Shown piece by piece: positions 54,931 through 64,000 of a stretch of 64,000 nt of DNA. Both the position numbers and the translations under genes were made by a program. Location: contig CAYVHS010000002.1 of NCBI GenBank assembly GCA_964451495.1, positions 5,932 to 69,931 of the forward strand, written 5' to 3'. The notes under the pieces are model-generated. The model searched no databases and had not been told where the DNA came from. It saw only the letters and a program-made list of their open reading frames with translations. Position 1 is the stretch's first letter; each line of letters starts with the position of its first letter. The DNA comes from an uncultured Bdellovibrionales bacterium. Lineage in GTDB: Bacteria; Patescibacteriota; Minisyncoccia; Moranbacterales; UBA1568.

Positions 54931-55305
54931 TTATTTTTTCGTCTGTTCTTCCTTCACTCGGAACCGCACTATTTTCCGAATCAATCCCCAAGGCAGATCC
55001 TTGCCCAGCGGAAACTGAATAGTGCCCTTGGAGGTCCGATAGGCTGATAATTCTTTCTCAAACACTCGAATCCCCGATGCGCCAGGATACAAACCAATAT
55101 GTTTCTGATATGCTGCAAAATGCACCACATTTCGCCCACCTAGACGCAGAGTCGGGATGCCATACCGGATAGCTTCTTCGGCCCCAGGAACCACAGCATG
55201 AATCGTCTGCCTGAGTCTTTCCAGTATCTTTCTCGTCTCTTCTGGAAAGGTATCGATATATTCGTCGATGTCTTTGTAGGTTTTCATACCCTCACTATCA
55301 ATCAA
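54931..55305 (-). CDS. DUF1801 (YdhG-like) domain protein
   Basis: 124 aa (…YKDIDEYIDTFPEETRKILERLRQTIHAVVPGAEEAIRYGIPT…). Confidence 0.65.
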   Translation of the reverse strand: MIDSEGMKTYKDIDEYIDTFPEETRKILERLRQTIHAVVPGAEEAIRYGIPTLRLGGRNVVHFAAYQKHIGLYPGASGIRVFEKELSAYRTSKGTIQFPLGKDLPWGLIRKIVRFRVKEEQTKK

Positions 55306-55327
55306 AAGTCTCCAGCGTGCCCTCTCT

Positions 55328-55789
55328 TTATTGAGTCAATAATGCTGCTATATCAATTTTCTTCATATTGAGTAACTTGCTCCATGCCCCTGGCGTTTTC
55401 ATTATCTCTTCGATATTTTCAGGATTGATCTGCCACGACAAGCCATATTTATCTTTGCACCAGCCACACACGCTTTCAGCACCTCCATCTATCGTCAGCT
55501 TTTCCCAATAGTAATCAATCTCCGATTGATCTTTGCAAGCAATATTAAACGACACAGCCTCATTAAACGTAAATTCATTCCCAGCATTAATAGCCACAAA
55601 TTCCTGACCCATCAGCTCAAAGGAGATGGCAAGTACTTTACCAGCAAACGGCTCTTGAAAATCGAGCAATCCTTCTGTTGGATAATATGAGGTGGTAATA
55701 ATTTTTCCGTCCCTAAAAACAGATAGATAAAAATTAACCGCTTCTTCCGCGTTCCCTTTAAACCACAAATTTGGTGTTATTTTTTGCAT
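55328..55789 (-). CDS. VOC/glyoxalase-fold protein (PhnB-like)
   Basis: MQKITPNLWFKGNAEEAVNFY… is the typical start of the PhnB/3-demethylubiquinone-methyltransferase-like VOC family. Confidence 0.7.
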   Translation of the reverse strand: MQKITPNLWFKGNAEEAVNFYLSVFRDGKIITTSYYPTEGLLDFQEPFAGKVLAISFELMGQEFVAINAGNEFTFNEAVSFNIACKDQSEIDYYWEKLTIDGGAESVCGWCKDKYGLSWQINPENIEEIMKTPGAWSKLLNMKKIDIAALLTQ

Positions 55790-55842
55790 AGGTAGATGAT
55801 GAATGAACTAATAAATCGAACGTCACAATAGTTTCTATCCTC

Positions 55843-55920
55843 ACTATAAACCAAAAATCCCCCAGATACAATCTGGAGGATTTTTCACTGCGGAGTACCT
55901 GGAACGAAGTTAGAGCTTAC
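55843..55920. repeat. att-like repeat B: degenerate copy of the tRNA-Ser 3' end plus its downstream terminator hairpin
   Basis: ACTATAAACCAAAAATCCCCCAGATACAATCTGGAGGATTTTTCAC+TGCGGAGTACCTGGAACGAAGTTAGAGCTTAC. It aligns with 63021..63100 (copy A) and, for the second half, with 57533..57577 (copy C). Confidence 0.6.
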
Positions 55921-56481
55921 TTATATTTTTATCTTGCTCAATTGAAGTAATTTTGTTGTGGTATTCCAATTACGGATGGTCATAGATTTATAAAGAGGCG
56001 AAGTCATAATTTTATTTAATCTACTTTTGGTACGTTCGGAACTAAGACGCTGAGAATAAATCACTCCATCGCCTTGCCAGACTTTGTCGACCCCATCTTT
56101 AGGGCTAAATTCAGACATTGCCATGCTCGAACTAATACCCATCAGAAAAATAACATCGCTGTGGTATTTTTCTGGATGCATACCAAAACCTTTTGGCTTA
56201 TTACCAATAACTGCTTTGAGTTGATCATGAGTCAATACTAAAACTTTAATAACTTCACTATCAAGTTTGAAATCCTTAGGAAGAATCTTTTCAATCCGTT
56301 CTCTTATTTTATCAGGACTCATAGTAGACTTCACAATCACATTGCCACTAGCAATATATGTTGAAACATCGGAAAACCCATGCTTTTCCAAGCATTTCCT
56401 TAATTCGGTCATCGGGACTTTGTTTTTTCCACCAACATTTATTCCACGCAATAATATGACAAAAGTTTCCATAATTTTCAT
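55921..56481 (-). CDS. DUF1697 family protein
   Basis: VILLRGINVGGKNKVPM… is the DUF1697 signature N-terminus. Confidence 0.75.
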   Translation of the reverse strand: MKIMETFVILLRGINVGGKNKVPMTELRKCLEKHGFSDVSTYIASGNVIVKSTMSPDKIRERIEKILPKDFKLDSEVIKVLVLTHDQLKAVIGNKPKGFGMHPEKYHSDVIFLMGISSSMAMSEFSPKDGVDKVWQGDGVIYSQRLSSERTKSRLNKIMTSPLYKSMTIRNWNTTTKLLQLSKIKI

Positions 56482-56662
56482 TATACCTTACTAAGAATCG
56501 TTAGCGGGCTACCTCGGTCTAGAACCCATAATTTATCAATCCGTTGGGGAATGTCTCAGGAGTTCAGAGCGCAAGAGGAATTGAGGTGTCTCAATCGTAA
56601 TCTTAAAAAAGGATAGTGAGACAATTGATCAGCGAAACGGGCACCGTCTTATTTTTAAGCTA

Positions 56663-57466
56663 CTACTGATGAATGGGCACGAGTTTGAGGCGCCGGTTCC
56701 CTCCATCCGCTAGAAAAAGAGTTTGCAATATAGCATGTACATCCTTTATTGCCTGTCCCGAGCAGGCCTCAGTCTTGAGTTTAAAAATTCGCTGGCCAGT
56801 AAAGAAAACTGTATTTTCGACTTCGCAAGAAGCATTGGTATAGTAACGAACCGCGGAATACCAATTCACTTTTGTGTTCTGAACTCCAGCTTGAGTGATG
56901 TTCACACCTTCTCGTGCTTCCACCCACGCAGTAAGATTTGTTACCTCTTGAGCTTGTGGGATAATTTCCATGGTAATTGTTGAAGTTATGGCAGATGTCT
57001 CTTTTTCAGTCAGTACCAGCGTGGCATTGTTTCGATCAAAAATACTTTCCTTGAGATTGTAAGCTTTGGGATAACTGAAATCAAGATCCAGGAGCTGGTT
57101 CTCATACTTTTCACCAAATTGACTTAAACCCTGGCTGCGATCTGTAGGCAGGATTGGGTGTTCTTCGAGAGCGAAAAATGGAGGATGAAAGACAAGACTG
57201 TAGAGAAAGAATCCCGCAAGATTCACAGTTAAAAATCCAAAGAGGATGATATAACCCTTCCGGATTTTTCTGATAACCAGATTTCCAGAAGGAGCTTTGA
57301 TTAATAGAGCTAAGAGGCTCAAAAGAAGAGTACCGCCAAGGAGAAGGACGAGGCACCAGGAGAGAAAACGAAAGGTTATATCATAGATGCTGACAGAGGG
57401 AAGCGTAGCCTGAACAGAAAATGGAACAAGCAGCAAAAAAATTACGAAAATTAGTATTCTCCTCAT
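56663..57466 (-). CDS. hypothetical membrane protein (signal peptide plus 2–3 TM helices, extracytoplasmic C-terminal domain)
   Basis: 267 aa; no family recognised; AT-rich. Confidence 0.4.
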   Translation of the reverse strand: MRRILIFVIFLLLVPFSVQATLPSVSIYDITFRFLSWCLVLLLGGTLLLSLLALLIKAPSGNLVIRKIRKGYIILFGFLTVNLAGFFLYSLVFHPPFFALEEHPILPTDRSQGLSQFGEKYENQLLDLDFSYPKAYNLKESIFDRNNATLVLTEKETSAITSTITMEIIPQAQEVTNLTAWVEAREGVNITQAGVQNTKVNWYSAVRYYTNASCEVENTVFFTGQRIFKLKTEACSGQAIKDVHAILQTLFLADGGNRRLKLVPIHQ

Positions 57467-57532
57467 ATTTGTAATTTAACACAAAAAACCACAAAGTTTA
57501 ACACCTTTTTAAGGTCTCAGGTCATCCTCGAT

Positions 57533-57577
57533 ACTATGAGCTTAATGCGGAGAGCCTGGGACGAAGTTAGAACTTAT
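57533..57577. repeat. att-like repeat C (tRNA-3'-end-like fragment without hairpin)
   Basis: ACTATGAGCTTAATGCGGAGAGCCTGGGACGAAGTTAGAACTTAT. Its core differs at only 3 positions from the corresponding part of repeat B. Confidence 0.5.
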
Positions 57578-57734
57578 ATGGTAAGCCTAGTATAGCCCAT
57601 TCGTGATTCAAACCCTACTTATCTCTAGTCCCGATTTAGCTTGTTCCAAACCAAGAAATATGGATTGCGTTAGAGCGAAAGCAAATCTATGTATACTTGT
57701 CCCGCCCACCCAGTGTGTGCACAAGCGGACCCCC

Positions 57735-58823
57735 CTATATTTTTTTTCCTACATATCTTTCAATTCCATCAATCTTCAAATCCTCATCACAGACAATCCC
57801 AACACTATAACTCGCTCTTGTTATTGCGACATAAAATTTTGATCGACTTGTAGGTGCCAGCTCTGAGTTATTATTTTTTATCCATGAAATAAATTGCGGT
57901 GTCGGGTACATAAGAGTTCTTTCAAATTCTAGTCCTTTTGATAAACCAAATGTTAAAACTCTATAATTCTCGTTGATTACCGTCCTTGAATCCCAACGCA
58001 ATTGTATCGGTTTATATTCAGAAAGATAATTTGCAATATCTTGTGTATTTACAAAAAACACTCCGTCATGTCCCGTGCTGTTTGTATTCCCAGAGGTTGT
58101 TTTTTTCAAATCTGGGTACAGTTTATTTGATAAATCGCAGATAGGTGAACAACTACGATAATTAGTTGTTAGGGAATTATCATCCTTTTCAATCGTGATT
58201 GAGGCATCCTCAAAAAAATTGATGATTTTTGTTTTCTTAAATTTTTTATTTTTTGATGAATTATTTGTTGAATATGTACCTTGTCGCGGATCGCCAACTA
58301 ACAAAATATTTGTTTTGCAATCAAAAAGAAGTTTTAAAAAATCTAGATCATACCCTGCCAAATCCTGTATTTCATCTATGAATATATCCGTGTAAATTCT
58401 TGATAGCCTATCAACCACAGAACCATTGCTTTGTTCGTTACATTTAACAACAAATTTTGAAAGTTTATCAGAGTAGATTTTTTGATTTTTTGTAAAATAA
58501 TGATTCTGTGTATCTATTTCTGCTACACCTTTTGCAGATATCCCATTGATTAGAACTAAACCATTTATATCATCATTAAATTTACACCCCTGAAATGGTC
58601 GCGCGCCATGCTGTAATAAAAAAGAAAACCATGTTTGAATAGTTACATTTTCTGGAACACATCTATTGATTTTTATAAACTTCCTTCTAATTTCTTCCTC
58701 GTTTGCCTGTGTGTATGTAGTAATAAGTATTCTCCCATTTTTCTTCTTTAACGCCTCATTTACAAGAAAAGTGGTTTTTCCCGATCCTGCGGCGGCGATG
58801 ATCAATTTATTATTACCGCACAT
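57735..58823 (-). CDS. compact UvrD/PcrA-like SF1 helicase (GajB-like partner of OLD-family nuclease)
   Basis: Walker A AAGSGKTT, DEIQD (motif II), GDPRQ (III), YRS (IV), YVAITRA (VI). The start codon is 1 nt after the GajA-like stop (TAAtATG). Confidence 0.7.
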   Translation of the reverse strand: MCGNNKLIIAAAGSGKTTFLVNEALKKKNGRILITTYTQANEEEIRRKFIKINRCVPENVTIQTWFSFLLQHGARPFQGCKFNDDINGLVLINGISAKGVAEIDTQNHYFTKNQKIYSDKLSKFVVKCNEQSNGSVVDRLSRIYTDIFIDEIQDLAGYDLDFLKLLFDCKTNILLVGDPRQGTYSTNNSSKNKKFKKTKIINFFEDASITIEKDDNSLTTNYRSCSPICDLSNKLYPDLKKTTSGNTNSTGHDGVFFVNTQDIANYLSEYKPIQLRWDSRTVINENYRVLTFGLSKGLEFERTLMYPTPQFISWIKNNNSELAPTSRSKFYVAITRASYSVGIVCDEDLKIDGIERYVGKKI

Positions 58824-58824
58824 A

Positions 58825-60474
58825 TTATTTTATGGCATCCAAAATATATTGCGGAAAGTTAACTGTTTCTGCTGTATCAAAAATTTTCAATGCACAATCT
58901 GTTTTATTTACTTTCATGTATTTATGCAAATCGTCTACGTTGGTGTAAGTTGTACCGAAGATTTTATTGAAAGATTCAAGACTGTTCATTTTTAATAACT
59001 TTGGTTCAAGCGTATTGTAGTTAAATTTTTTCCCGTCAACCTCAAGAGTCCCCGTATCAACAGTCTCGTCAAAGCAAATTTTTATAAAATCCTTGGCATT
59101 TTCTCCTAAATAATCATCATACTTACTCTTTACAGCTTCGGGGCTCCCATCATTGTCAGTTGCTACAATAAGGGGCTTCTTGATTTTCTTGGCAATCTCT
59201 AAAAATCTTAAAAATGATGTTCCAACCGAAATAACATCTACACCATTTTCAATCGGCAATTTGTCACTGTTATTCACCATAAATGCTTTTTGGATAATTA
59301 GTTCATCCGAATCGCCCTCAACTAAAATTGCTTTCTGGCAAAGAATAAGGCGCAAAGTGTCATATCCTGGTAATCTTTCAAAAAAACTTCTAGTACCCTC
59401 TTGTAAGTCATCGAGCTTTACTGTTTCGTTATTGTTTAGCAAGATTAAACTTTTCAATCCAAGTTTATTTGCGACAAAACTACTATGTGTAGAAATAATT
59501 ATCTGCTTGTTATTATCTTCGCTCTTTATCCCATGAATGAGTTGATTGAGTTTTGTGTGCGATAGATGATTTTCTGGTTCTTCAAGAAGTAGAATATTAG
59601 CCTCTCGAGATTTACTATGACTCAAAGCTAAATTTGTTTTTACGATACACTGTTCTCCTTTTCCTATGTGATGAAAAGGGACATTGTCAAAATAAGTCAT
59701 TAAGCTGCTTTCCCACGCATTTTTTGATGATAGATCAACGGACAACTTAACATCCTTATTTGAAATTTTTGTTGCAGTTTTTATTTTAGAATTTATATTC
59801 TGTATTGCTTTATCATCCATGAAAAAATCTCTCATCTTTCTATGAGCCTGCGAAATACTAACAACATCTTCTGGTTCTAAAAAGTCTTTAACGATCCTTG
59901 AAATATAAATATCGGATCCGTTTTGATAACGATTACTTGAAGAATCAATCAGGGCAGATTTGATTGGGATACTTCGTGCGGTAATATTCTCGCGTGCACA
60001 AGAAGCCCAAAATACATCATAATATTCAATGGGAATAGTTTTAATATTTCCGCCTTTTATAAATTCTTCATATTCTCCTTGATATTTTTCATCAAAGGCA
60101 ATCTTTAAGGATATTCCGCATTCTTTTTTGCCATCGCTATTACTGTCGCCTTCAAATTTTGCCAAGTCATCACCGACTACAAAAATCTCAATCAAAATAT
60201 GTGGCAATGTAGCAGGTTCGCCTTTATCTAACTTTTCGACATATTCAGCAACAATCTCGTTGTTAAATAAATATTGCGTTAATTCATTTTTTAAGTACCG
60301 ACCATTGAACAAACCCGACAAAACCAGATGTATTGATTCAAGTATCGTAGATTTTCCCGCTTCGTTATTGCCAACCAAAATATTAAGCCCCTCATTTAAT
60401 TTCAGGTTAAACTTGCCCTTAAAGCATTTAAAATTTTCAATATTTATTTCCTTGATATACATTTTGCTTGCCAT
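58825..60474 (-). CDS. OLD-family ATP-dependent endonuclease (ABC-type ATPase + TOPRIM), GajA-like
   Basis: Walker A GNNEAGKST; ABC signature/Walker B (ILLLEEPENHL…STHS); C-terminal TOPRIM with ILVEGDSDE and VATDNDG. Confidence 0.75.
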   Translation of the reverse strand: MASKMYIKEINIENFKCFKGKFNLKLNEGLNILVGNNEAGKSTILESIHLVLSGLFNGRYLKNELTQYLFNNEIVAEYVEKLDKGEPATLPHILIEIFVVGDDLAKFEGDSNSDGKKECGISLKIAFDEKYQGEYEEFIKGGNIKTIPIEYYDVFWASCARENITARSIPIKSALIDSSSNRYQNGSDIYISRIVKDFLEPEDVVSISQAHRKMRDFFMDDKAIQNINSKIKTATKISNKDVKLSVDLSSKNAWESSLMTYFDNVPFHHIGKGEQCIVKTNLALSHSKSREANILLLEEPENHLSHTKLNQLIHGIKSEDNNKQIIISTHSSFVANKLGLKSLILLNNNETVKLDDLQEGTRSFFERLPGYDTLRLILCQKAILVEGDSDELIIQKAFMVNNSDKLPIENGVDVISVGTSFLRFLEIAKKIKKPLIVATDNDGSPEAVKSKYDDYLGENAKDFIKICFDETVDTGTLEVDGKKFNYNTLEPKLLKMNSLESFNKIFGTTYTNVDDLHKYMKVNKTDCALKIFDTAETVNFPQYILDAIK

Positions 60475-60477
60475 ATT

Positions 60478-61581
60478 TTATTTCCCAGACTTAGTCCGGT
60501 TATCTTGTTTGCAAAGCATTTGGCAGTTGTCCGCAATTGTCTTGCCGCCTTCATGCCAAGGGGTGATGTGATCGGCTTCCATTTCTTCTATTGCAAAACG
60601 CTCTCCGCATTTTGTGCAGATTCCTTTCTGTCTTTCGTACGCCTCGCGCTTCATCTTTTCATTGAAAGCGCGTATTGAGAGATGCCTTTCTTGTCCTGTG
60701 AGCAAAAATGGATAGATGCCGGATTTCTTCGTTACATCATCATCCTGCATCAACTTCGAAACTTCGGCTTCTAGCTTCTTAGCGTCTAGTTTTTTGTCTT
60801 TGAATTGATTATATAGTTCGCCCCAATTCACATTCGCCATTTCTTTGCGGTGATCAGGAAACGCGTTGCGCACCCACACTATAACATTTTGGAAATACTC
60901 CCACAATTCGTTAGCATTTTTGTCGTGCTGATGCTTCGCCATGTAGTCTGCCACTTCGCCGTTATTTATCCATGAAAGCGCAGTTTCCAAGTATTCTTGC
61001 CGGATCGGCGAGCCGGTGAGCAATGCGCCGCCATCATTTGCCAAAAGGTATGCAGCGCAATTTGATTTACTGAATTTAAGTTTCGCGTCTGAAAGCCATG
61101 GTCCGGTATAAACGGCATTACGCAATTCTTGATCCGTTAGTTTTTCACCTGCGATGTTGATAATCTTAAACCAGTCCAGCTTTTCCTTGTCTGTTCCTTC
61201 GCAGAAATAAACCATCAGCTCATAATCGAGGATCTTATCCTGTTCTTCTTTGGTAAGATTATGAAACATTGCCAGACGACCATTGAAATCTACTGAAAAG
61301 TCACCATTTACATACTGGCCAATACTAATCGTTCTTTGTTGTCCATCGAGTACCTCGAAATTATCTTGGTCTGTTTTTACCCAGTACATCACGTTAAGCG
61401 GGAAACTTTTCTTCACCGTATCAATAACCGCATCACGCTGCTTTTCCTTGTAGACGAATTCGCGCTGATACTTCGGACGAACATCAAGCCTGCCTCCATA
61501 AGCCACAACGCCTTCTTCAGCACTGTCTTTGTAGCCGTCTATCACTTCGCGTACTTTGATTTTATGCAGGTCGATTTTCAT
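60478..61581 (-). CDS. DUF262 (ParB-like nuclease/NTPase domain) + C-terminal HNH endonuclease, GmrSD/BrxU-like type IV restriction-type protein
   Basis: DUF262 DGQQR motif (VLDGQQRTISI). C-terminal HNH (CTKCGER…EADHITPWHEGGKTIADNCQMLCKQDN). Confidence 0.7.
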   Translation of the reverse strand: MKIDLHKIKVREVIDGYKDSAEEGVVAYGGRLDVRPKYQREFVYKEKQRDAVIDTVKKSFPLNVMYWVKTDQDNFEVLDGQQRTISIGQYVNGDFSVDFNGRLAMFHNLTKEEQDKILDYELMVYFCEGTDKEKLDWFKIINIAGEKLTDQELRNAVYTGPWLSDAKLKFSKSNCAAYLLANDGGALLTGSPIRQEYLETALSWINNGEVADYMAKHQHDKNANELWEYFQNVIVWVRNAFPDHRKEMANVNWGELYNQFKDKKLDAKKLEAEVSKLMQDDDVTKKSGIYPFLLTGQERHLSIRAFNEKMKREAYERQKGICTKCGERFAIEEMEADHITPWHEGGKTIADNCQMLCKQDNRTKSGK

Positions 61582-61582
61582 A

Positions 61583-62680
61583 TTATTTCTTTAAGCTTTT
61601 GTTTTTAATAAGAACTCGTGCGTAAGTTTCTTTATTATTAATTGTGAATCGTCTACCGTAATTGGGGTTACCTTCTACGTACCTATCAATACCAATAATT
61701 TCAAATTGACTTGGACTATATTTATCCAAAAATGTGATTGGGACTCCCATCACCCCAGGATAATCCATAGGAATATCGCTCACTTTATTAACATTTATTG
61801 CGTTGTATGTATCGTAATTTGGATATTCTTCTTTAGAATATTTTTTATATAACGTAATTTCTTGGTGTCGTTTGGTTGTGTCTAAATTTGTAAACCAAAC
61901 AATTCTGCCCATACTAAAATACTGGATTCCATTTTCAATTTTTTTCCTTGATTCTGTAGGAATATCATAATCATCAGGAACCTGAAACCATTTTGTCCCC
62001 CCATTATCGTAACCGAGCCACAATTTATCTTCCTTTATCAATTTAAAAGTTTCTTTATAGGTTATTGCATTTTGATCACCGAGAATTAAGAATTTTTTAC
62101 CGTATTCAACAAGCTGAGCAACATACTCACGAAATAACGAAAAGGGTGGATTTGTTACAACTATATCAGCTTGCTTTAGTAACTCTATGCTTTCCTCGTT
62201 TCTAAAGTCTCCTTCACCTTTAAGTGGTAGCCATTCGTTGTTTTTGTTAGCCTTGAGCTGTTCAGCTATATCACGCAGATCAAATGCACCGTCACCGTCT
62301 ATATCATCAACCTCGTTGATGATGAATTTGTTAGCCGTTATTTTTGGGCGACCTTTTGGTTCTGCTGACCGTCTCACAACCTTATCTTCATAACCAAGAA
62401 GAAGGGACGGCTGCAATACAAGTTCTGTATTGGCAATAGGAGACGGTTTGTAGCTAGTGGCAATAAGCTTCTTTAATCCAAGTTCTTTAAAGTTGCTAGC
62501 AAAGTATTTAAAAAAGTTGCTTTCAAACGGATCATCGCAATTGCAATACACAACTTTGCCGCGAAACTGACTTTTATAGTGTTTCAGCTCCTTTTCAATA
62601 TCAACAAGCTGAGTATAAAACTCATCTTTTTTTGCTTTGTTGGCTTTGTGTAGATTGCTATTTAATGATTCCTTTCCCAT
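61583..62680 (-). CDS. N6-adenine DNA methyltransferase (EcoRI-methylase-like family)
   Basis: N-terminal KDEFYTQ, catalytic motif IV VVTNPPFS, about 365 aa. The family assignment is from motif memory. Confidence 0.65.
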   Translation of the reverse strand: MGKESLNSNLHKANKAKKDEFYTQLVDIEKELKHYKSQFRGKVVYCNCDDPFESNFFKYFASNFKELGLKKLIATSYKPSPIANTELVLQPSLLLGYEDKVVRRSAEPKGRPKITANKFIINEVDDIDGDGAFDLRDIAEQLKANKNNEWLPLKGEGDFRNEESIELLKQADIVVTNPPFSLFREYVAQLVEYGKKFLILGDQNAITYKETFKLIKEDKLWLGYDNGGTKWFQVPDDYDIPTESRKKIENGIQYFSMGRIVWFTNLDTTKRHQEITLYKKYSKEEYPNYDTYNAINVNKVSDIPMDYPGVMGVPITFLDKYSPSQFEIIGIDRYVEGNPNYGRRFTINNKETYARVLIKNKSLKK

Positions 62681-62846
62681 AATTTTTTCTATTCAAACCA
62701 TCAGTAAGAGCTGAGACAAAATCAACCCAGCTATCCAACCAAAGATCAGTTTCTTCAAGGCTTACTTTACATTTACAAAGCTTTTCAAAATATTGCTGAC
62801 CTCTCTTCAGCAACTCTTCAGAAAACATGTACTTTTGACGCTCCAT
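62658..62846 (-). CDS. small hypothetical ORF (62 aa) overlapping the methyltransferase start by 23 nt
   Basis: ATG is 3 nt after the stop of the upstream HTH-fragment ORF. No family recognised. Confidence 0.25.
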   Translation of the reverse strand: MERQKYMFSEELLKRGQQYFEKLCKCKVSLEETDLWLDSWVDFVSALTDGLNRKNYGKGIIK

Positions 62847-62848
62847 AC

Positions 62849-62968
62849 TTACTTCACAAAGTATTCGATACTTTTACCGTAGAGCTGAGCAAATCTTTTC
62901 ACTTCTAGAATATCTAGTCGATATTCTCCTGATTCAACTCGTGAAATATAAGATTGCGGTCGCTTCAT
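62849..62968 (-). pseudogene. XRE-type helix-turn-helix fragment (helices 2–3 and tail only), probably a truncated regulator
   Basis: …(GLESELRQIDVAEK)MKRPQSYISRVESGEYRLDILEVKRFAQLYGKSIEYFVK*. The in-frame sequence continues upstream into the tRNA terminator to a TAG at 63029..63031, with no upstream ATG other than the one at 62968. Confidence 0.35.
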
Positions 62969-63028
62969 CTTTTCGGCAACATCAATCTGCCTGAGCTCTG
63001 ATTCTAGCCCATACCCCCCTACTATAGA

Positions 63029-63060: not shown

Positions 63061-63067
63061 CAATTTG

Positions 63068-63154
63068 CGGAAAGGGAGAGATTCGAACTCTCGGAGGTTT
63101 TTACGCCTCGGCACGTTAGCAGTGTGCTGGTTTAAGCCGCTCACCCACCTTTCC
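63068..63154 (-). tRNA. tRNA-Ser (anticodon GCU), class II with long variable arm; CCA not encoded
   Basis: Manual fold: acceptor GGAAAGG/CCTTTCC, T-arm GAGAG-TTCGAAT-CTCTC, anticodon loop CUGCUAA, a 3-bp D-stem and a long variable arm. Total 87 nt. Confidence 0.8.
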
Positions 63155-63168
63155 AAATTTTGCTTTAT

Positions 63169-64000
63169 TTAAGCCATTTTATATCTTTTCTCGTGCTTCG
63201 GATTATGAGTTCCAACCACTTGAAAATATTTCTCTACATCTTTTTTGGCTTCAATCCGTATATCCCAACCATTTTTCATTATGCGATGCTTTATACCTAA
63301 AATCAAGAGGGTCCCGCTTGCTGACTTTATAAGCGGGTATGATCGGCTTGTAATGCCGACCTTCTTGTATTGGTATCTTTTCCCATTCGAAAGATACTGA
63401 TGAAGTATAATACAGCCGTCAGTATCAATCAAGCCGCGCAAACAAGCGATAGAATAAGATCTATCTTCTTTCACCCACATTGGGAAATCGACTTGTTGCT
63501 TCACCTTATTCCCCGATTTCATTCCTACAACATTTATCAGATAAGAAACCAGTCCTATCCTAGAAACCACAATCCGTTTAGCTAGAGATCTTTTATCACG
63601 ATAAACACCTACGGGAGCATCAAAAAGCTTTCTAGTTAGTTTTTCGACAAATTTCAAATATTCTTTATCAGTCTCACTGTTAAGTGTCACAGTAAACTGA
63701 CGTTCGCTCATTCCTCCATCGCCAAGCATAATTCCGACAAACTCAGCCAGGTCTTTTGAAAATTTAGGCTTCTTAAACGGAAGCGCTTGAATCATTTTTG
63801 ATGGTTTGAATTTCCCTTCTCTCTCCCACCACTCGTGCCACTTCTTTTTCCGATACTCCGGATCGCCGCCGACACTGCCATATTTCTCGACAGTCGCCCT
63901 ACCACCTGCACGAGCACCTTTCGAGACATACCAATAAGCATCTCTGGTACCGATATCTGTCGGTACAGGAATGTTTCTTTTTTCGCAAATTCGTTCGACA
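63169..64000 (-). CDS. LAGLIDADG homing-endonuclease-domain protein; N-terminus beyond window end
   Basis: Two LAGLIDADG motifs (GIMLGDGGM and LRGLIDTDGCI). The reading frame stays open upstream of the annotated Met through position 64000 (…YGSVGGDPEYRKKKWHEWWEREGKFKPSKMIQ…). Confidence 0.6.
   Translation of the reverse strand, partial: VERICEKRNIPVPTDIGTRDAYWYVSKGARAGGRATVEKYGSVGGDPEYRKKKWHEWWEREGKFKPSKMIQALPFKKPKFSKDLAEFVGIMLGDGGMSERQFTVTLNSETDKEYLKFVEKLTRKLFDAPVGVYRDKRSLAKRIVVSRIGLVSYLINVVGMKSGNKVKQQVDFPMWVKEDRSYSIACLRGLIDTDGCIILHQYLSNGKRYQYKKVGITSRSYPLIKSASGTLLILGIKHRIMKNGWDIRIEAKKDVEKYFQVVGTHNPKHEKRYKMA

What the first reader, a model, noticed from the sequence alone, without database searches (positions are those of the whole stretch)
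57735..62968. Tightly overlapping four-gene defence operon: N6A-methyltransferase → DUF262-HNH nuclease → OLD-family ATPase-TOPRIM → short UvrD-like helicase
Four minus-strand genes are separated by 1–3 nt (stop/start TAAtATG junctions), implying translational coupling. The last two genes are the Gabija architecture: a GajA-like OLD-family ATPase+TOPRIM followed by a GajB-like SF1 helicase. Here the helicase is unusually compact (362 aa) but retains motifs I, II, III, IV and VI. These are fused in one operon with a GmrSD/BrxU-like DUF262+HNH protein, a modification-dependent type IV-like nuclease, and an EcoRI-methylase-family N6-adenine MTase. I do not recognise a methyltransferase plus a modification-sensing-type nuclease plus Gabija in a single translationally coupled unit as a described system. 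It could be a composite defence module, for example Gabija whose self/non-self discrimination is set by the MTase, or a type II-like R-M pair recruited in front of Gabija. A small ORF and a truncated XRE-HTH fragment lie just upstream. The whole block is visibly more AT-rich than the flanking core genes.
Basis: partly seen in the sequence, partly recalled or inferred. Interest (0 to 1): 0.85.

Follow-up and report, generated by a model that had tools for sequence, protein, structure and literature searches.

The report
Restriction-modification pair joined to compact Gabija
The four genes are two separate, already-known anti-phage systems (a type II restriction-modification pair and a compact Gabija pair) joined head to tail. 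The one unusual point is that this Gabija lineage is nearly always attached to the end of some restriction-modification operon, of whatever type.

Summary
Four minus-strand genes sit 1, 3 and 1 nt apart: an EcoRI-family N6A methyltransferase, a DUF262+HNH nuclease, an OLD-family ATPase-TOPRIM (GajA) and a 362-aa UvrD-like helicase (GajB), in an AT-rich block next to tRNA-Ser.

The reading as one four-component system does not hold. The MTase+nuclease pair is a stand-alone type II R-M module. In 80 species carrying the nuclease, 77 have the MTase directly upstream and none has this Gabija. Relatives of this Gabija always keep the GajA+short GajB pair, and all but one other lineage lack this R-M. 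DNA homology to the two modules breaks exactly at window 60475-60478.

There is one unexpected pattern. In 14 of 22 distinct contexts of this Gabija clade, and 13 of 15 at 75% GajA identity or more, the pair sits directly after, and co-oriented with, an R-M operon. Spacing is -4 to 110 nt. The R-M types include I, II, IIS, III and IIG-like. A complete R-M never sits directly downstream (0/17).

Most likely this is layered defence in which Gabija uses the R-M operon's transcription and possibly its activity. The link is to R-M in general, not to this methyltransferase.

Interest is moderate: two known systems in a new, recurrent arrangement.

The parts
63067..63154 (-). tRNA-Ser (GCU). It flanks the AT-rich block and is a plausible integration hotspot. 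It is not part of the defence genes.
   Evidence: ARAGORN; Rfam tRNA, 48.3 bits. No tRNA-derived direct repeat was found at the other end of the block.
62852..63028 (-). Remnant of an XRE-type HTH gene. It lacks its N-terminus and has no usable start codon.
   Evidence: Translation; Pfam HTH_3 E=4.4e-8, profile positions 10-55 of 55. Found next to the R-M or Gabija module in none of the related loci searched; the only hit, in L021, lies about 3 kb away on the opposite strand.
62658..62846 (-). 62-aa ORF that overlaps the MTase start by 23 nt. Coding status is uncertain.
   Evidence: Listed. No meaningful Pfam, PADLOC or NCBIfam match. No tblastn homologue in any related locus searched. R-M-module DNA homology starts only at about 62703.
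61583..62680 (-). Type II N6-adenine DNA methyltransferase of the EcoRI-methylase family, with an NPPF motif.
   Evidence: PF13651 E=1.9e-136, full length. PADLOC MTase_II PDLC03297 E=7.9e-122. Present directly upstream of the nuclease in 77/80 species.
60478..61581 (-). Restriction endonuclease: N-terminal DUF262/ParB-like NTPase domain (DGQQR) plus C-terminal HNH nuclease.
   Evidence: GmrSD_N 2e-17 and HNH 2e-12. PADLOC REase_II PDLC03418 E=2.5e-145, positions 1-372 of 372. 75-92% identical homologues, named by their sources mostly in Patescibacteria.
60475..60477 (.). Junction between the two modules (3-nt spacer between the REase stop and the GajA start).
   Evidence: blastn. R-M-module homology runs from window 62703 down to 60471-60478. 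Gabija-module homology runs from 60478-60483 down to about 57750. No related locus spans both modules except the independent L102/L103.
58825..60474 (-). GajA: OLD-family ABC ATPase plus TOPRIM nuclease.
   Evidence: PADLOC GajA PDLC00102 E=5.5e-222. Pfam AAA_15 and OLD-like_TOPRIM. AF2 model has B. cereus GajA 8sm3_A as best PDB fold match, E=1.9e-17, TM 0.53. Catalytic residues are invariant.
57735..58823 (-). GajB: compact UvrD-like SF1 helicase/NTPase.
   Evidence: PADLOC GajB PDLC00148 E=3.6e-136, positions 2-366 of 369. The profile of 17 relatives hits UvrD and B. cereus GajB (residues 5-248, E about 1e-9) in the PDB. Motifs I-VI are invariant.
57467..57734 (.). 268-nt non-coding spacer after GajB, marking the end of the block.
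   Evidence: No ORF. No canonical terminator. No Rfam match. Homology to Gabija relatives stops at about 57750.

Best explanation
The block is a mosaic of two self-sufficient defence cassettes joined head to tail and probably read as one transcript.

**Cassette 1: a type II R-M pair.** The EcoRI-family N6-adenine methyltransferase marks host DNA. The DUF262(ParB-like NTPase)-HNH endonuclease cuts unmarked incoming DNA.

**Cassette 2: a compact Gabija.** GajA (ABC ATPase + TOPRIM nuclease) and a short GajB (UvrD-like NTPase) act as a second layer and do not depend on this methyltransferase.

**The wider pattern.** The Gabija cassette belongs to a subclade, apparently mostly in Patescibacteria, that carries almost no upstream DNA of its own. 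It is habitually appended, co-oriented, to the 3' end of whatever R-M operon is present. The coupling is therefore to R-M in general.

**Most likely mechanism.** Gabija relies on the R-M operon's transcription. It may also gain function from it in one of two ways. Restriction may create the free DNA ends that Gabija acts on. Alternatively, Gabija may fire when a phage disables restriction.

**What is shown:** module identities, their independent distributions, the exact junction, and the polar and recurrent docking.

**What is inferred:** co-transcription, and any functional synergy.
For: **The R-M pair stands alone**
- 77/80 species carrying the nuclease have the MTase directly upstream, and 0/80 have this Gabija.
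- Genes downstream of the R-M module are heterogeneous: other ATPases, KAP NTPases, recombinases and housekeeping genes.

**Gabija stands alone**
- All relatives with sequence available keep GajA followed by a short GajB.
- Plasmid relatives (54-64% identity) and viral-contig relatives (30-65%) are lone two-gene units.

**Mosaic junction**
- DNA homology to the two modules meets at 60475-60478.
- The two modules differ in base composition.

**Recurrent polar docking**
- An R-M or methylase-containing operon lies directly upstream and co-oriented in 14 of 22 distinct contexts:
  - type I: L082, L106, probably L112
  - type II: window, L102, L085
  - AlwI-like IIS: L081
  - type III: L099, L088
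  - PLD-SNF2 helicase + IIG-like methylase: L101, L104, L086, L108
  - DUF1156/DUF499: L115
- A complete R-M lies directly downstream in 0 of 17 contexts. Fisher p=2.5e-5.
- R-M types are interleaved on the GajA tree, and the outgroups are not docked.
- The second EcoRI-MTase/DUF262-HNH + Gabija locus (L102/L103) carries an R-M from a different sublineage. Its REase is 96% identical to Gabija-less L068 and 77% identical to the window's.

**Spacing**
- Docked loci have -4 to 110 nt before GajA.
- Undocked relatives have 74-557 nt.

**Literature context**
- Defence systems nested in R-M/BREX/Hma operons are co-oriented in 96.7% of cases, and Ocr-type anti-restriction proteins are reported to trigger Gabija (preprint 10.1101/2024.01.29.577857).
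- Gabija is proposed to attack linear DNA ends that lack RecBCD (PMC12407980).
Against: - No transcript data. The sigma-70 and terminator scans gave nothing above shuffled controls, so neither co-transcription nor an internal promoter is shown.
- Contexts were sampled by similarity and contig length, not at random. Some docked loci may share ancestry, for example the four SNF2+IIG loci, so the number of independent events is nearer 10 than 14.
- R-M systems are the commonest defence genes in these small genomes, and tight co-oriented spacing is common there: 21% of same-strand gaps in the window are 5 nt or less. Part of the pattern could therefore be background.
- No experiment on this compact Gabija subtype turned up in the papers searched here.
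- The prototype enzyme behind the REase_II profile was not identified.
Confidence: 0.7

Rival explanations
1. A single obligate four-component system. The methyltransferase marks self DNA, and both the DUF262-HNH nuclease and Gabija read that mark.
For: Stop/start spacing of 1-3 nt across all four genes. A second locus with the same four gene families exists (L102/L103).
Against: - 0/80 R-M loci carry this Gabija.
- The closest Gabija relatives (83-91% identity) sit behind type I, IIS, III and IIG-like systems, or behind none.
- The homology break lies exactly between the two pairs.
- The R-M modules of the window and of L102 are not each other's closest relatives.
Confidence: 0.05
2. Plain defence-island adjacency in a compact genome. 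The two cassettes landed side by side with no selective or functional link, and the small gaps reflect genome streamlining.
For: - Both modules function as separate units elsewhere.
- Short same-strand gaps are frequent in the window.
- R-M is the dominant defence type in candidate-phyla-radiation genomes (PMC12259885).
- Genes of many kinds follow the R-M module elsewhere.
Against: - Strong polarity: 14/22 upstream against 0/17 downstream, p=2.5e-5.
- At least about 10 independent juxtapositions with different R-M types within one narrow Gabija subclade.
- Gabija-module DNA homology begins only 4-9 nt before the gajA start codon.
- Outgroup relatives are not docked.
Confidence: 0.2
3. The DUF262-HNH protein is a modification-dependent (type IV, GmrSD/BrxU-like) nuclease, and the adjacent methyltransferase is not its cognate protector.
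For: N-terminal GmrSD_N/DUF262 domain with DGQQR. Weak hits to PADLOC NsnA, PD-T4-2_A and a type IV profile.
Against: - No DUF1524 domain. The C-terminus is a classical HNH (PF01844).
- End-to-end match to a type II REase profile, E=2.5e-145, against 0.0018 for the type IV profile.
- 77/80 species keep the MTase directly upstream on the same strand. This is the signature of a cognate R-M pair.
Confidence: 0.05

Closest known systems
Gabija (GajA/GajB; Class 2 OLD nuclease + UvrD-like helicase), prototype Bacillus cereus VD045
   Same: Same two-gene architecture and order. GajA has an ABC ATPase and a TOPRIM domain with intact metal-binding acidic residues. GajB has all SF1 helicase motifs. PADLOC GajA and GajB profiles match end to end. 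The best structural match of the GajA model is BcGajA.
   Different: - Very distant in sequence: about 16% identity in the fold alignment. A sequence profile finds Thermus Class 1 OLD (6p74) in the PDB but not BcGajA.
- GajA is 549 aa, and GajB 362 aa against about 494 aa for the solved B. cereus GajB chains. Only residues 5-248 align to BcGajB, and most of the accessory C-terminal region is missing.
- This subclade is appended to R-M operons rather than standing alone.
Type II restriction-modification systems with EcoRI-family methyltransferases
   Same: A full-length EcoRI_methylase-family N6A MTase (NPPF) sits immediately upstream of a nuclease that matches a PADLOC type II REase profile. 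The pair is conserved as a unit in 77/80 species.
   Different: - The nuclease is not an EcoRI-like PD-(D/E)XK enzyme. It is a DUF262/ParB-like NTPase fused to HNH, so it may be NTP-dependent.
- Specificity is unknown.
- The nuclease is more conserved (75-91%) than the MTase (50-84%) across the loci compared.
Defence systems 'embedded' in R-M/BREX/DISARM/Hma operons (Payne et al. preprint 10.1101/2024.01.29.577857) and the PrrC-EcoprrI pairing
   Same: A second-line ABC-ATPase-based defence is co-oriented and tightly packed with a methylation-based first-line system. That preprint itself suggests Gabija or PARIS as a backup triggered by anti-restriction proteins.
   Different: - Here Gabija is appended after the last R-M gene rather than nested between R-M genes.
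- The hosts include type II, IIS and III systems.
- The habit characterises one Gabija subclade.
- No physical or regulatory interaction, as known for PrrC-EcoprrI, has been shown.
GmrSD / BrxU / SspE (DUF262 + DUF1524 type IV nucleases)
   Same: N-terminal DUF262 domain with the DGQQR motif.
   Different: The C-terminal domain is a classical HNH, not DUF1524. The protein is strictly paired with a methyltransferase and matches a type II REase profile.

Membership tests
Gabija | [quoted passage not shown] | tested here: met
   Pfam AAA_15/SMC_N/AAA_21 plus OLD-like_TOPRIM. PADLOC GajA PDLC00102 E=5.5e-222, positions 1-530 of 532. Foldseek top hit BcGajA 8sm3_A, E=1.9e-17, TM 0.53.
Gabija | [quoted passage not shown] This is the definition of Class 2 OLD (PMC6755086, PMC10568477). 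| tested here: met
   GajB starts 1 nt after the GajA stop. PADLOC GajB PDLC00148 E=3.6e-136. The pair is kept in every relative with sequence available.
Gabija | Intact catalytic residues: Walker A/B, TOPRIM acidic residues, helicase motifs I-VI | tested here: met
   Invariant columns in GajA: G35, K41, E298-E301, E386, D388, D390, D440, D442. Invariant columns in GajB: G13/G15/K16/T18, D150/E151/Q153/D154, D178-Q181, R223, G293/K296/G297, T335/R336.
Gabija | Helical insert in the TOPRIM domain, typical of Class 2 OLD proteins (PMC10568477) | tested here: inconclusive
   The protein is 549 aa, nearer to Class 1 TsOLD than to BcGajA. A sequence profile finds TsOLD 6p74 (E=2.3e-10) but not BcGajA. 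The fold search ranks BcGajA first and TsOLD fifth. The insert itself was not mapped.
Gabija | GajA:GajB supramolecular complex and anti-phage activity | not testable with these tools
   Needs biochemistry and plaque assays. No experiment on this compact subtype was found in the papers searched.
Type II restriction-modification system | DNA methyltransferase with the N6-adenine catalytic motif | tested here: met
   PF13651 EcoRI_methylase E=1.9e-136, full length. NPPF read in the sequence. PADLOC MTase_II.
Type II restriction-modification system | A separate endonuclease gene genetically linked to the methyltransferase across genomes | tested here: met
   77/80 species have the MTase directly upstream on the same strand. 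PADLOC REase_II PDLC03418 E=2.5e-145, end to end.
Type II restriction-modification system | Cleavage at a defined unmethylated site, blocked by the cognate methylation | not testable with these tools
   Needs methylome data and in vitro cleavage. The enzyme behind the PADLOC profile was not identified here.
GmrSD/BrxU-type type IV restriction enzymes | DUF262 N-terminal domain | tested here: met
   GmrSD_N E=2e-17, residues 34-158.
GmrSD/BrxU-type type IV restriction enzymes | DUF1524 C-terminal His-Me nuclease domain (PMC12707154) | tested here: not met
   Only PF01844 HNH and HNH_5 match the C-terminus. No DUF1524 hit at E<=0.01.
GmrSD/BrxU-type type IV restriction enzymes | Acts alone on modified DNA, with no cognate methyltransferase | tested here: not met
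   Linked to an upstream MTase in 77/80 species. The PADLOC type IV profile scores only E=0.0018.
Embedded defence systems (sensu Payne et al. 2024 preprint) | Cargo genes nested between the genes of a host defence system, in the same orientation | tested here: not met
   Gabija is co-oriented but lies after the last R-M gene, not between R-M genes. True nesting does occur in this R-M family for other cargo, in about 21/80 loci.

The most novel reading that the evidence does not exclude
This Gabija subclade may have become an R-M-dependent accessory module. It would be promoter-less and appended to any R-M operon, and it would work in one of two ways. It could use the DNA ends made by restriction as its substrate or trigger. 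Or it could fire when a phage anti-restriction protein disables the upstream R-M. That would be a general 'restriction-coupled Gabija' class, which could help explain how Gabija tells foreign DNA from its own.
Probability: 0.25. Interest if true: 0.65.

Novelty: new variant of a known kind. Interest (0 to 1): 0.4.

Why it matters
How Gabija distinguishes foreign from host DNA is still debated. Current proposals include nucleotide depletion, DNA-end sensing, and DNA ends lacking RecBCD.

A lineage of Gabija that evolution has repeatedly placed at the 3' end of R-M operons of every type is a natural experiment. It suggests that Gabija profits from restriction activity, from its failure, or at least from its expression. 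This gives a simple testable design: the same Gabija with and without its upstream R-M, and with and without an anti-restriction protein.

It also shows that tight, translationally coupled-looking operons in compact genomes can be mosaics of independent defence cassettes. That is a caution against naming new multi-gene systems from a single locus.

Tried and rejected
- **Island borders.** I looked for a tRNA-Ser-derived direct repeat or other att-like repeats flanking the block and found none.
- **Promoters and terminators.** 21 promoter-like sites against 20.1 +/- 5.2 in shuffles, and 3 terminator-like sites against 3.7. None is informative on the minus strand.
- **RNA features.** Rfam found only the tRNA.
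- **Small ORF 62658-62846.** No meaningful family hit and no homologue in any related locus. It is not treated as part of the system.
- **A controller (C) protein for the R-M.** The XRE fragment is truncated and is not found next to the R-M in any other locus. Rejected.
- **PDB by sequence.** For the nuclease only the HNH motif matched. For the MTase nothing matched.
- **Prototype restriction enzyme.** I could not identify the enzyme behind PADLOC PDLC03418 from the literature library.
- **Source organism.** Patescibacteria is inferred only from the named relatives.
- **Synteny with an island-free relative.** No related locus shares the window's flanking genes.
- **Enterobacterial plasmid Gabija.** It is only about 27% identical. 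The published Gabija-tmn results therefore cannot be transferred to this subtype.

Full report
**1. The observation**

The window carries four minus-strand ORFs at exactly the coordinates given:
- MTase, 61583-62680
- DUF262-HNH nuclease, 60478-61581
- OLD-type ATPase-TOPRIM, 58825-60474
- UvrD-like helicase, 57735-58823

The stop/start junctions are TAAtATG, TAAaatATG and TAAtATG.

Profile matches leave no doubt about the domains:
- EcoRI_methylase, E=1.9e-136.
- GmrSD_N plus HNH.
- AAA_15 plus OLD-like_TOPRIM.
- UvrD-helicase.
- PADLOC places the last two genes end to end on GajA (PDLC00102, E=5.5e-222) and GajB (PDLC00148, E=3.6e-136; 369-position profile).
- PADLOC places the first two on MTase_II (E=7.9e-122) and REase_II (PDLC03418, E=2.5e-145, positions 1-372 of 372).

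Catalytic motifs are present and invariant among relatives.

The block is AT-rich. The MTase has 35% GC, GajA 33% and GajB 32%, against 47.3 +/- 1.6% for flanking long genes. The nuclease gene stands out at 43.7%.

Directly upstream lie three features:
- A tRNA-Ser gene at 63067-63154.
- A truncated XRE HTH remnant at 62852-63028 (HTH_3 positions 10-55 of 55).
- A 62-aa ORF with no detectable relatives.

**2. Are the four genes one system? The R-M side**

A scan of one genome per species found more than 580 loci encoding relatives of the nuclease. The best 80 (75-91% identical, mostly Patescibacteria) were fetched.

- In 77 of these 80 the EcoRI-family MTase lies directly upstream on the same strand.
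- None has a relative of the window's GajA or GajB.
- A profile search found only distant ABC-ATPase genes in four loci and a distant SF1 helicase in one.

The large co-oriented genes that follow the R-M module elsewhere are a mixed set: OLD/AriA/AbiL-type ATPases, KAP NTPases, PDC-S06, recombinases and plain housekeeping genes.

In about 21 of the 80 loci another co-oriented gene sits between M and R. These include RhuM, Fic, DUF2130, a second EcoRI-type MTase, T5orf172 and an OLD-like ATPase.

The MTase+DUF262-HNH pair is therefore a stand-alone, mobile type II R-M module that often carries variable cargo.

It is not GmrSD-like in the defining sense. It has no DUF1524 domain and is strictly linked to a methyltransferase.

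**3. The Gabija side**

Seventeen metagenome loci encode GajA relatives at 66-91% identity. In every locus with sequence available, a short GajB follows. None carries the window's MTase or nuclease.

DNA-level comparison shows a sharp break:
- Gabija-module homology runs from window 60478-60483 to about 57750.
- R-M-module homology runs from about 62703 to 60471-60478.

The two cassettes abut at 60475-60478, and neither brings flanking DNA.

More distant relatives are lone two-gene units with their own upstream spacers:
- On plasmids of cultured bacteria: Bacillus methanolicus pBM69, Agrobacterium and Enterobacter, at 54-64% identity.
- On viral contigs, at 30-65% identity.

The 'unusually compact' helicase is the norm for this subtype, at 344-403 aa.

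**4. The unexpected pattern**

I annotated the genes upstream of gajA in the closest relatives. An R-M system of some kind was almost always there, co-oriented and tightly spaced:

| Locus | Upstream system | Gap to gajA |
|---|---|---|
| L081 | two D12 MTases + AlwI-family REase | 2 nt |
| L082 | type I HsdR + HsdM/S | 2 nt |
| L085 | type II REase + beta-class MTase | 1 nt |
| L099/L100 | type III Mod + Res | 15 nt |
| L088/089/091 | type III Res + Mod | 4 nt |
| L101 | PLD/HKD-SNF2 helicase + type IIG-like Eco57I-family methylase | -4 nt |
| L104 | same pairing | 66 nt |
| L086 | same pairing | 53 nt |
| L108 | same pairing | 39 nt |
| L106/107 | type I HsdMSR + YgjP | 24 nt |
| L112 | YgjP plus a partial upstream gene | 13 nt |
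| L115 | DUF1156 methylase-DUF499-PDDEXK-DUF2130 | 110 nt |
| L102/L103 | EcoRI-MTase + DUF262-HNH | 30 nt |

The L102/L103 R-M belongs to a different sublineage from the window's. Its nuclease is 96% identical to that of Gabija-less L068 and 77% identical to the window's. The window's nuclease is 91% identical to those of Gabija-less L001 and L005.

The tally:
- 14 of 22 distinct contexts are docked.
- 13 of 15 are docked at 75% GajA identity or more.
- The exceptions carry recombinases, a reverse transcriptase plus a PD-(D/E)XK protein, or unrelated divergent genes.

The gene directly downstream of gajB is never part of a complete R-M (0/17). Neighbours there include Fur, FadL, a relaxase, a sigma factor, RelA, YceG, DUF2779, PDDEXK_1, DUF559 and one Mrr. 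The upstream/downstream asymmetry gives Fisher p=2.5e-5.

On a GajA tree the docked loci form one subclade in which R-M types are interleaved. The outgroups are undocked.

**5. Controls and limits**

- Tight spacing is common in this genome: 9 of 42 same-strand gaps are 5 nt or less. The 1-3 nt gaps alone do not prove translational coupling or a functional unit.
- Consensus promoter and terminator scans gave nothing above shuffled controls. Co-transcription is inferred only from spacing: docked loci have -4 to 110 nt before gajA, undocked relatives 74-557 nt.
- Contexts were chosen by similarity and contig length, and some docked loci may share ancestry. I estimate about 10 independent juxtapositions.
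- The custom R-M database used for the viral loci has limited sensitivity.
- R-M systems are the dominant defence type in candidate-phyla-radiation genomes (PMC12259885). Part of the enrichment is therefore background, although that does not explain the polarity.

**6. Membership and anatomy**

- *GajA.* The AlphaFold model (pLDDT 71.5; TOPRIM part above 86) matches B. cereus GajA best (8sm3_A, E=1.9e-17, TM 0.53), ahead of Class 1 Thermus OLD. By sequence profile, however, only Thermus OLD is found in the PDB. The protein is Gabija by gene-pair definition and by PADLOC profile. Whether it has the Class 2 TOPRIM insert was not settled.
- *GajB.* It aligns to B. cereus GajB over residues 5-248 and to UvrD motifs V-VI at its C-terminus. 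Most of the accessory C-terminal region is lacking.

**7. How it most likely works**

*Shown:* there are two intact, independently distributed cassettes, and this Gabija subclade is polarly attached to R-M operons of any type.

*Inferred:* the R-M pair is the first line, with the MTase protecting host DNA from the DUF262-HNH nuclease. Gabija is co-expressed from the R-M promoter as a second line.

Two published ideas make a functional link plausible:
- Gabija is proposed to act on linear DNA ends not occupied by RecBCD (PMC12407980). Restriction would generate such ends.
- Anti-restriction proteins such as Ocr are reported to trigger Gabija and PARIS. This has been proposed as the reason ABC-ATPase systems are embedded in methylation-based systems, by analogy with PrrC-EcoprrI (preprint 10.1101/2024.01.29.577857).

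Because the partner R-M varies across types, this particular methyltransferase cannot be what sets Gabija's self/non-self discrimination.

**8. Novelty and verdict**

Each cassette is a new member of a known family. Co-oriented packing of defence systems with R-M operons is a described phenomenon.

One thing was not found in the searched literature: a whole Gabija subclade habitually appended to the 3' end of R-M systems of types I, II, IIS, III and IIG-like.

That makes this a new variant in genomic organisation, not a new kind of system. Interest is moderate (0.4).

Noticed in passing
window 63169-63795 (-): A free-standing LAGLIDADG_3 homing-endonuclease-like ORF (208 aa, E=4e-9) lies immediately upstream of the tRNA-Ser gene. 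A 49-aa ORF overlaps its start. Its only relative among the fetched loci is a 23%-identical hit in L060.
   Followed up: partly
L001-L080 compared with window 60478-62680: In this R-M family the nuclease is more conserved (75-91% identity) than the methyltransferase (50-84%). In the window their GC3 values differ sharply: 0.47 for the nuclease and 0.31 for the MTase. This hints at recombination within the pair, or at unusual constraint on the nuclease.
   Followed up: partly
L012, L016, L018, L020, L022, L023, L025, L034, L044, L055, L063, L066-L068, L071, L080 and others (between the MTase and REase genes): About 21 of 80 loci carry an extra co-oriented gene nested between M and R: RhuM (four loci), Fic/DOC, DUF2130, a second EcoRI-family MTase, T5orf172, an OLD-like ATPase (L034) and several unknowns. 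This type II R-M acts as a scaffold for embedded cargo.
   Followed up: partly
L099 8725-10218; L108 8810-9562; L087 2585-3352; L115 3860-4627: PD-(D/E)XK-type genes (PDDEXK_1, and possibly DUF2779, whose fold was not checked here) recur directly next to this Gabija clade. In L099 the gene overlaps the gajB stop by 4 nt. This may be an occasional third component.
   Followed up: no
L101 1-6004; L104 1-5934; L086 52-6947; L108 1-5961: Four Gabija loci follow a PLD/HKD-SNF2 helicase plus a 1033-1241-aa Eco57I-family methylase. These give weak PADLOC hits to HmaA, DrmD and DrmMI and a strong hit to REase_MTase_IIG. They may be Hma- or DISARM-like systems rather than classical R-M.
   Followed up: partly
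window 55000-57500: The low-GC region (0.36-0.42) extends beyond the four genes into small accessory-looking ORFs at 55328-55789, 55921-56481 and 56663-57466. The last is a 267-aa predicted membrane protein with no Pfam match. The variable region may therefore span about 55-63.2 kb.
   Followed up: no
alignment A2 (GajB), columns 112-122, 240-243 and 279-284: GajB proteins of undocked relatives (L113, L114, L116, L117; L118 only in the first stretch) carry short insertions that are absent from all R-M-docked GajB proteins. The docked ones are the most compact.
   Followed up: no
L086 10186-13186; L108 12817-13659; L083 5558-6886; L113 2674-4395; L121, L123, L127, L132: Many Gabija loci of this family lie next to relaxase, coupling-protein or TraC-like genes, or next to large serine recombinases. 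They appear to ride on conjugative or integrative elements. No such gene is visible within the window's block.
   Followed up: no
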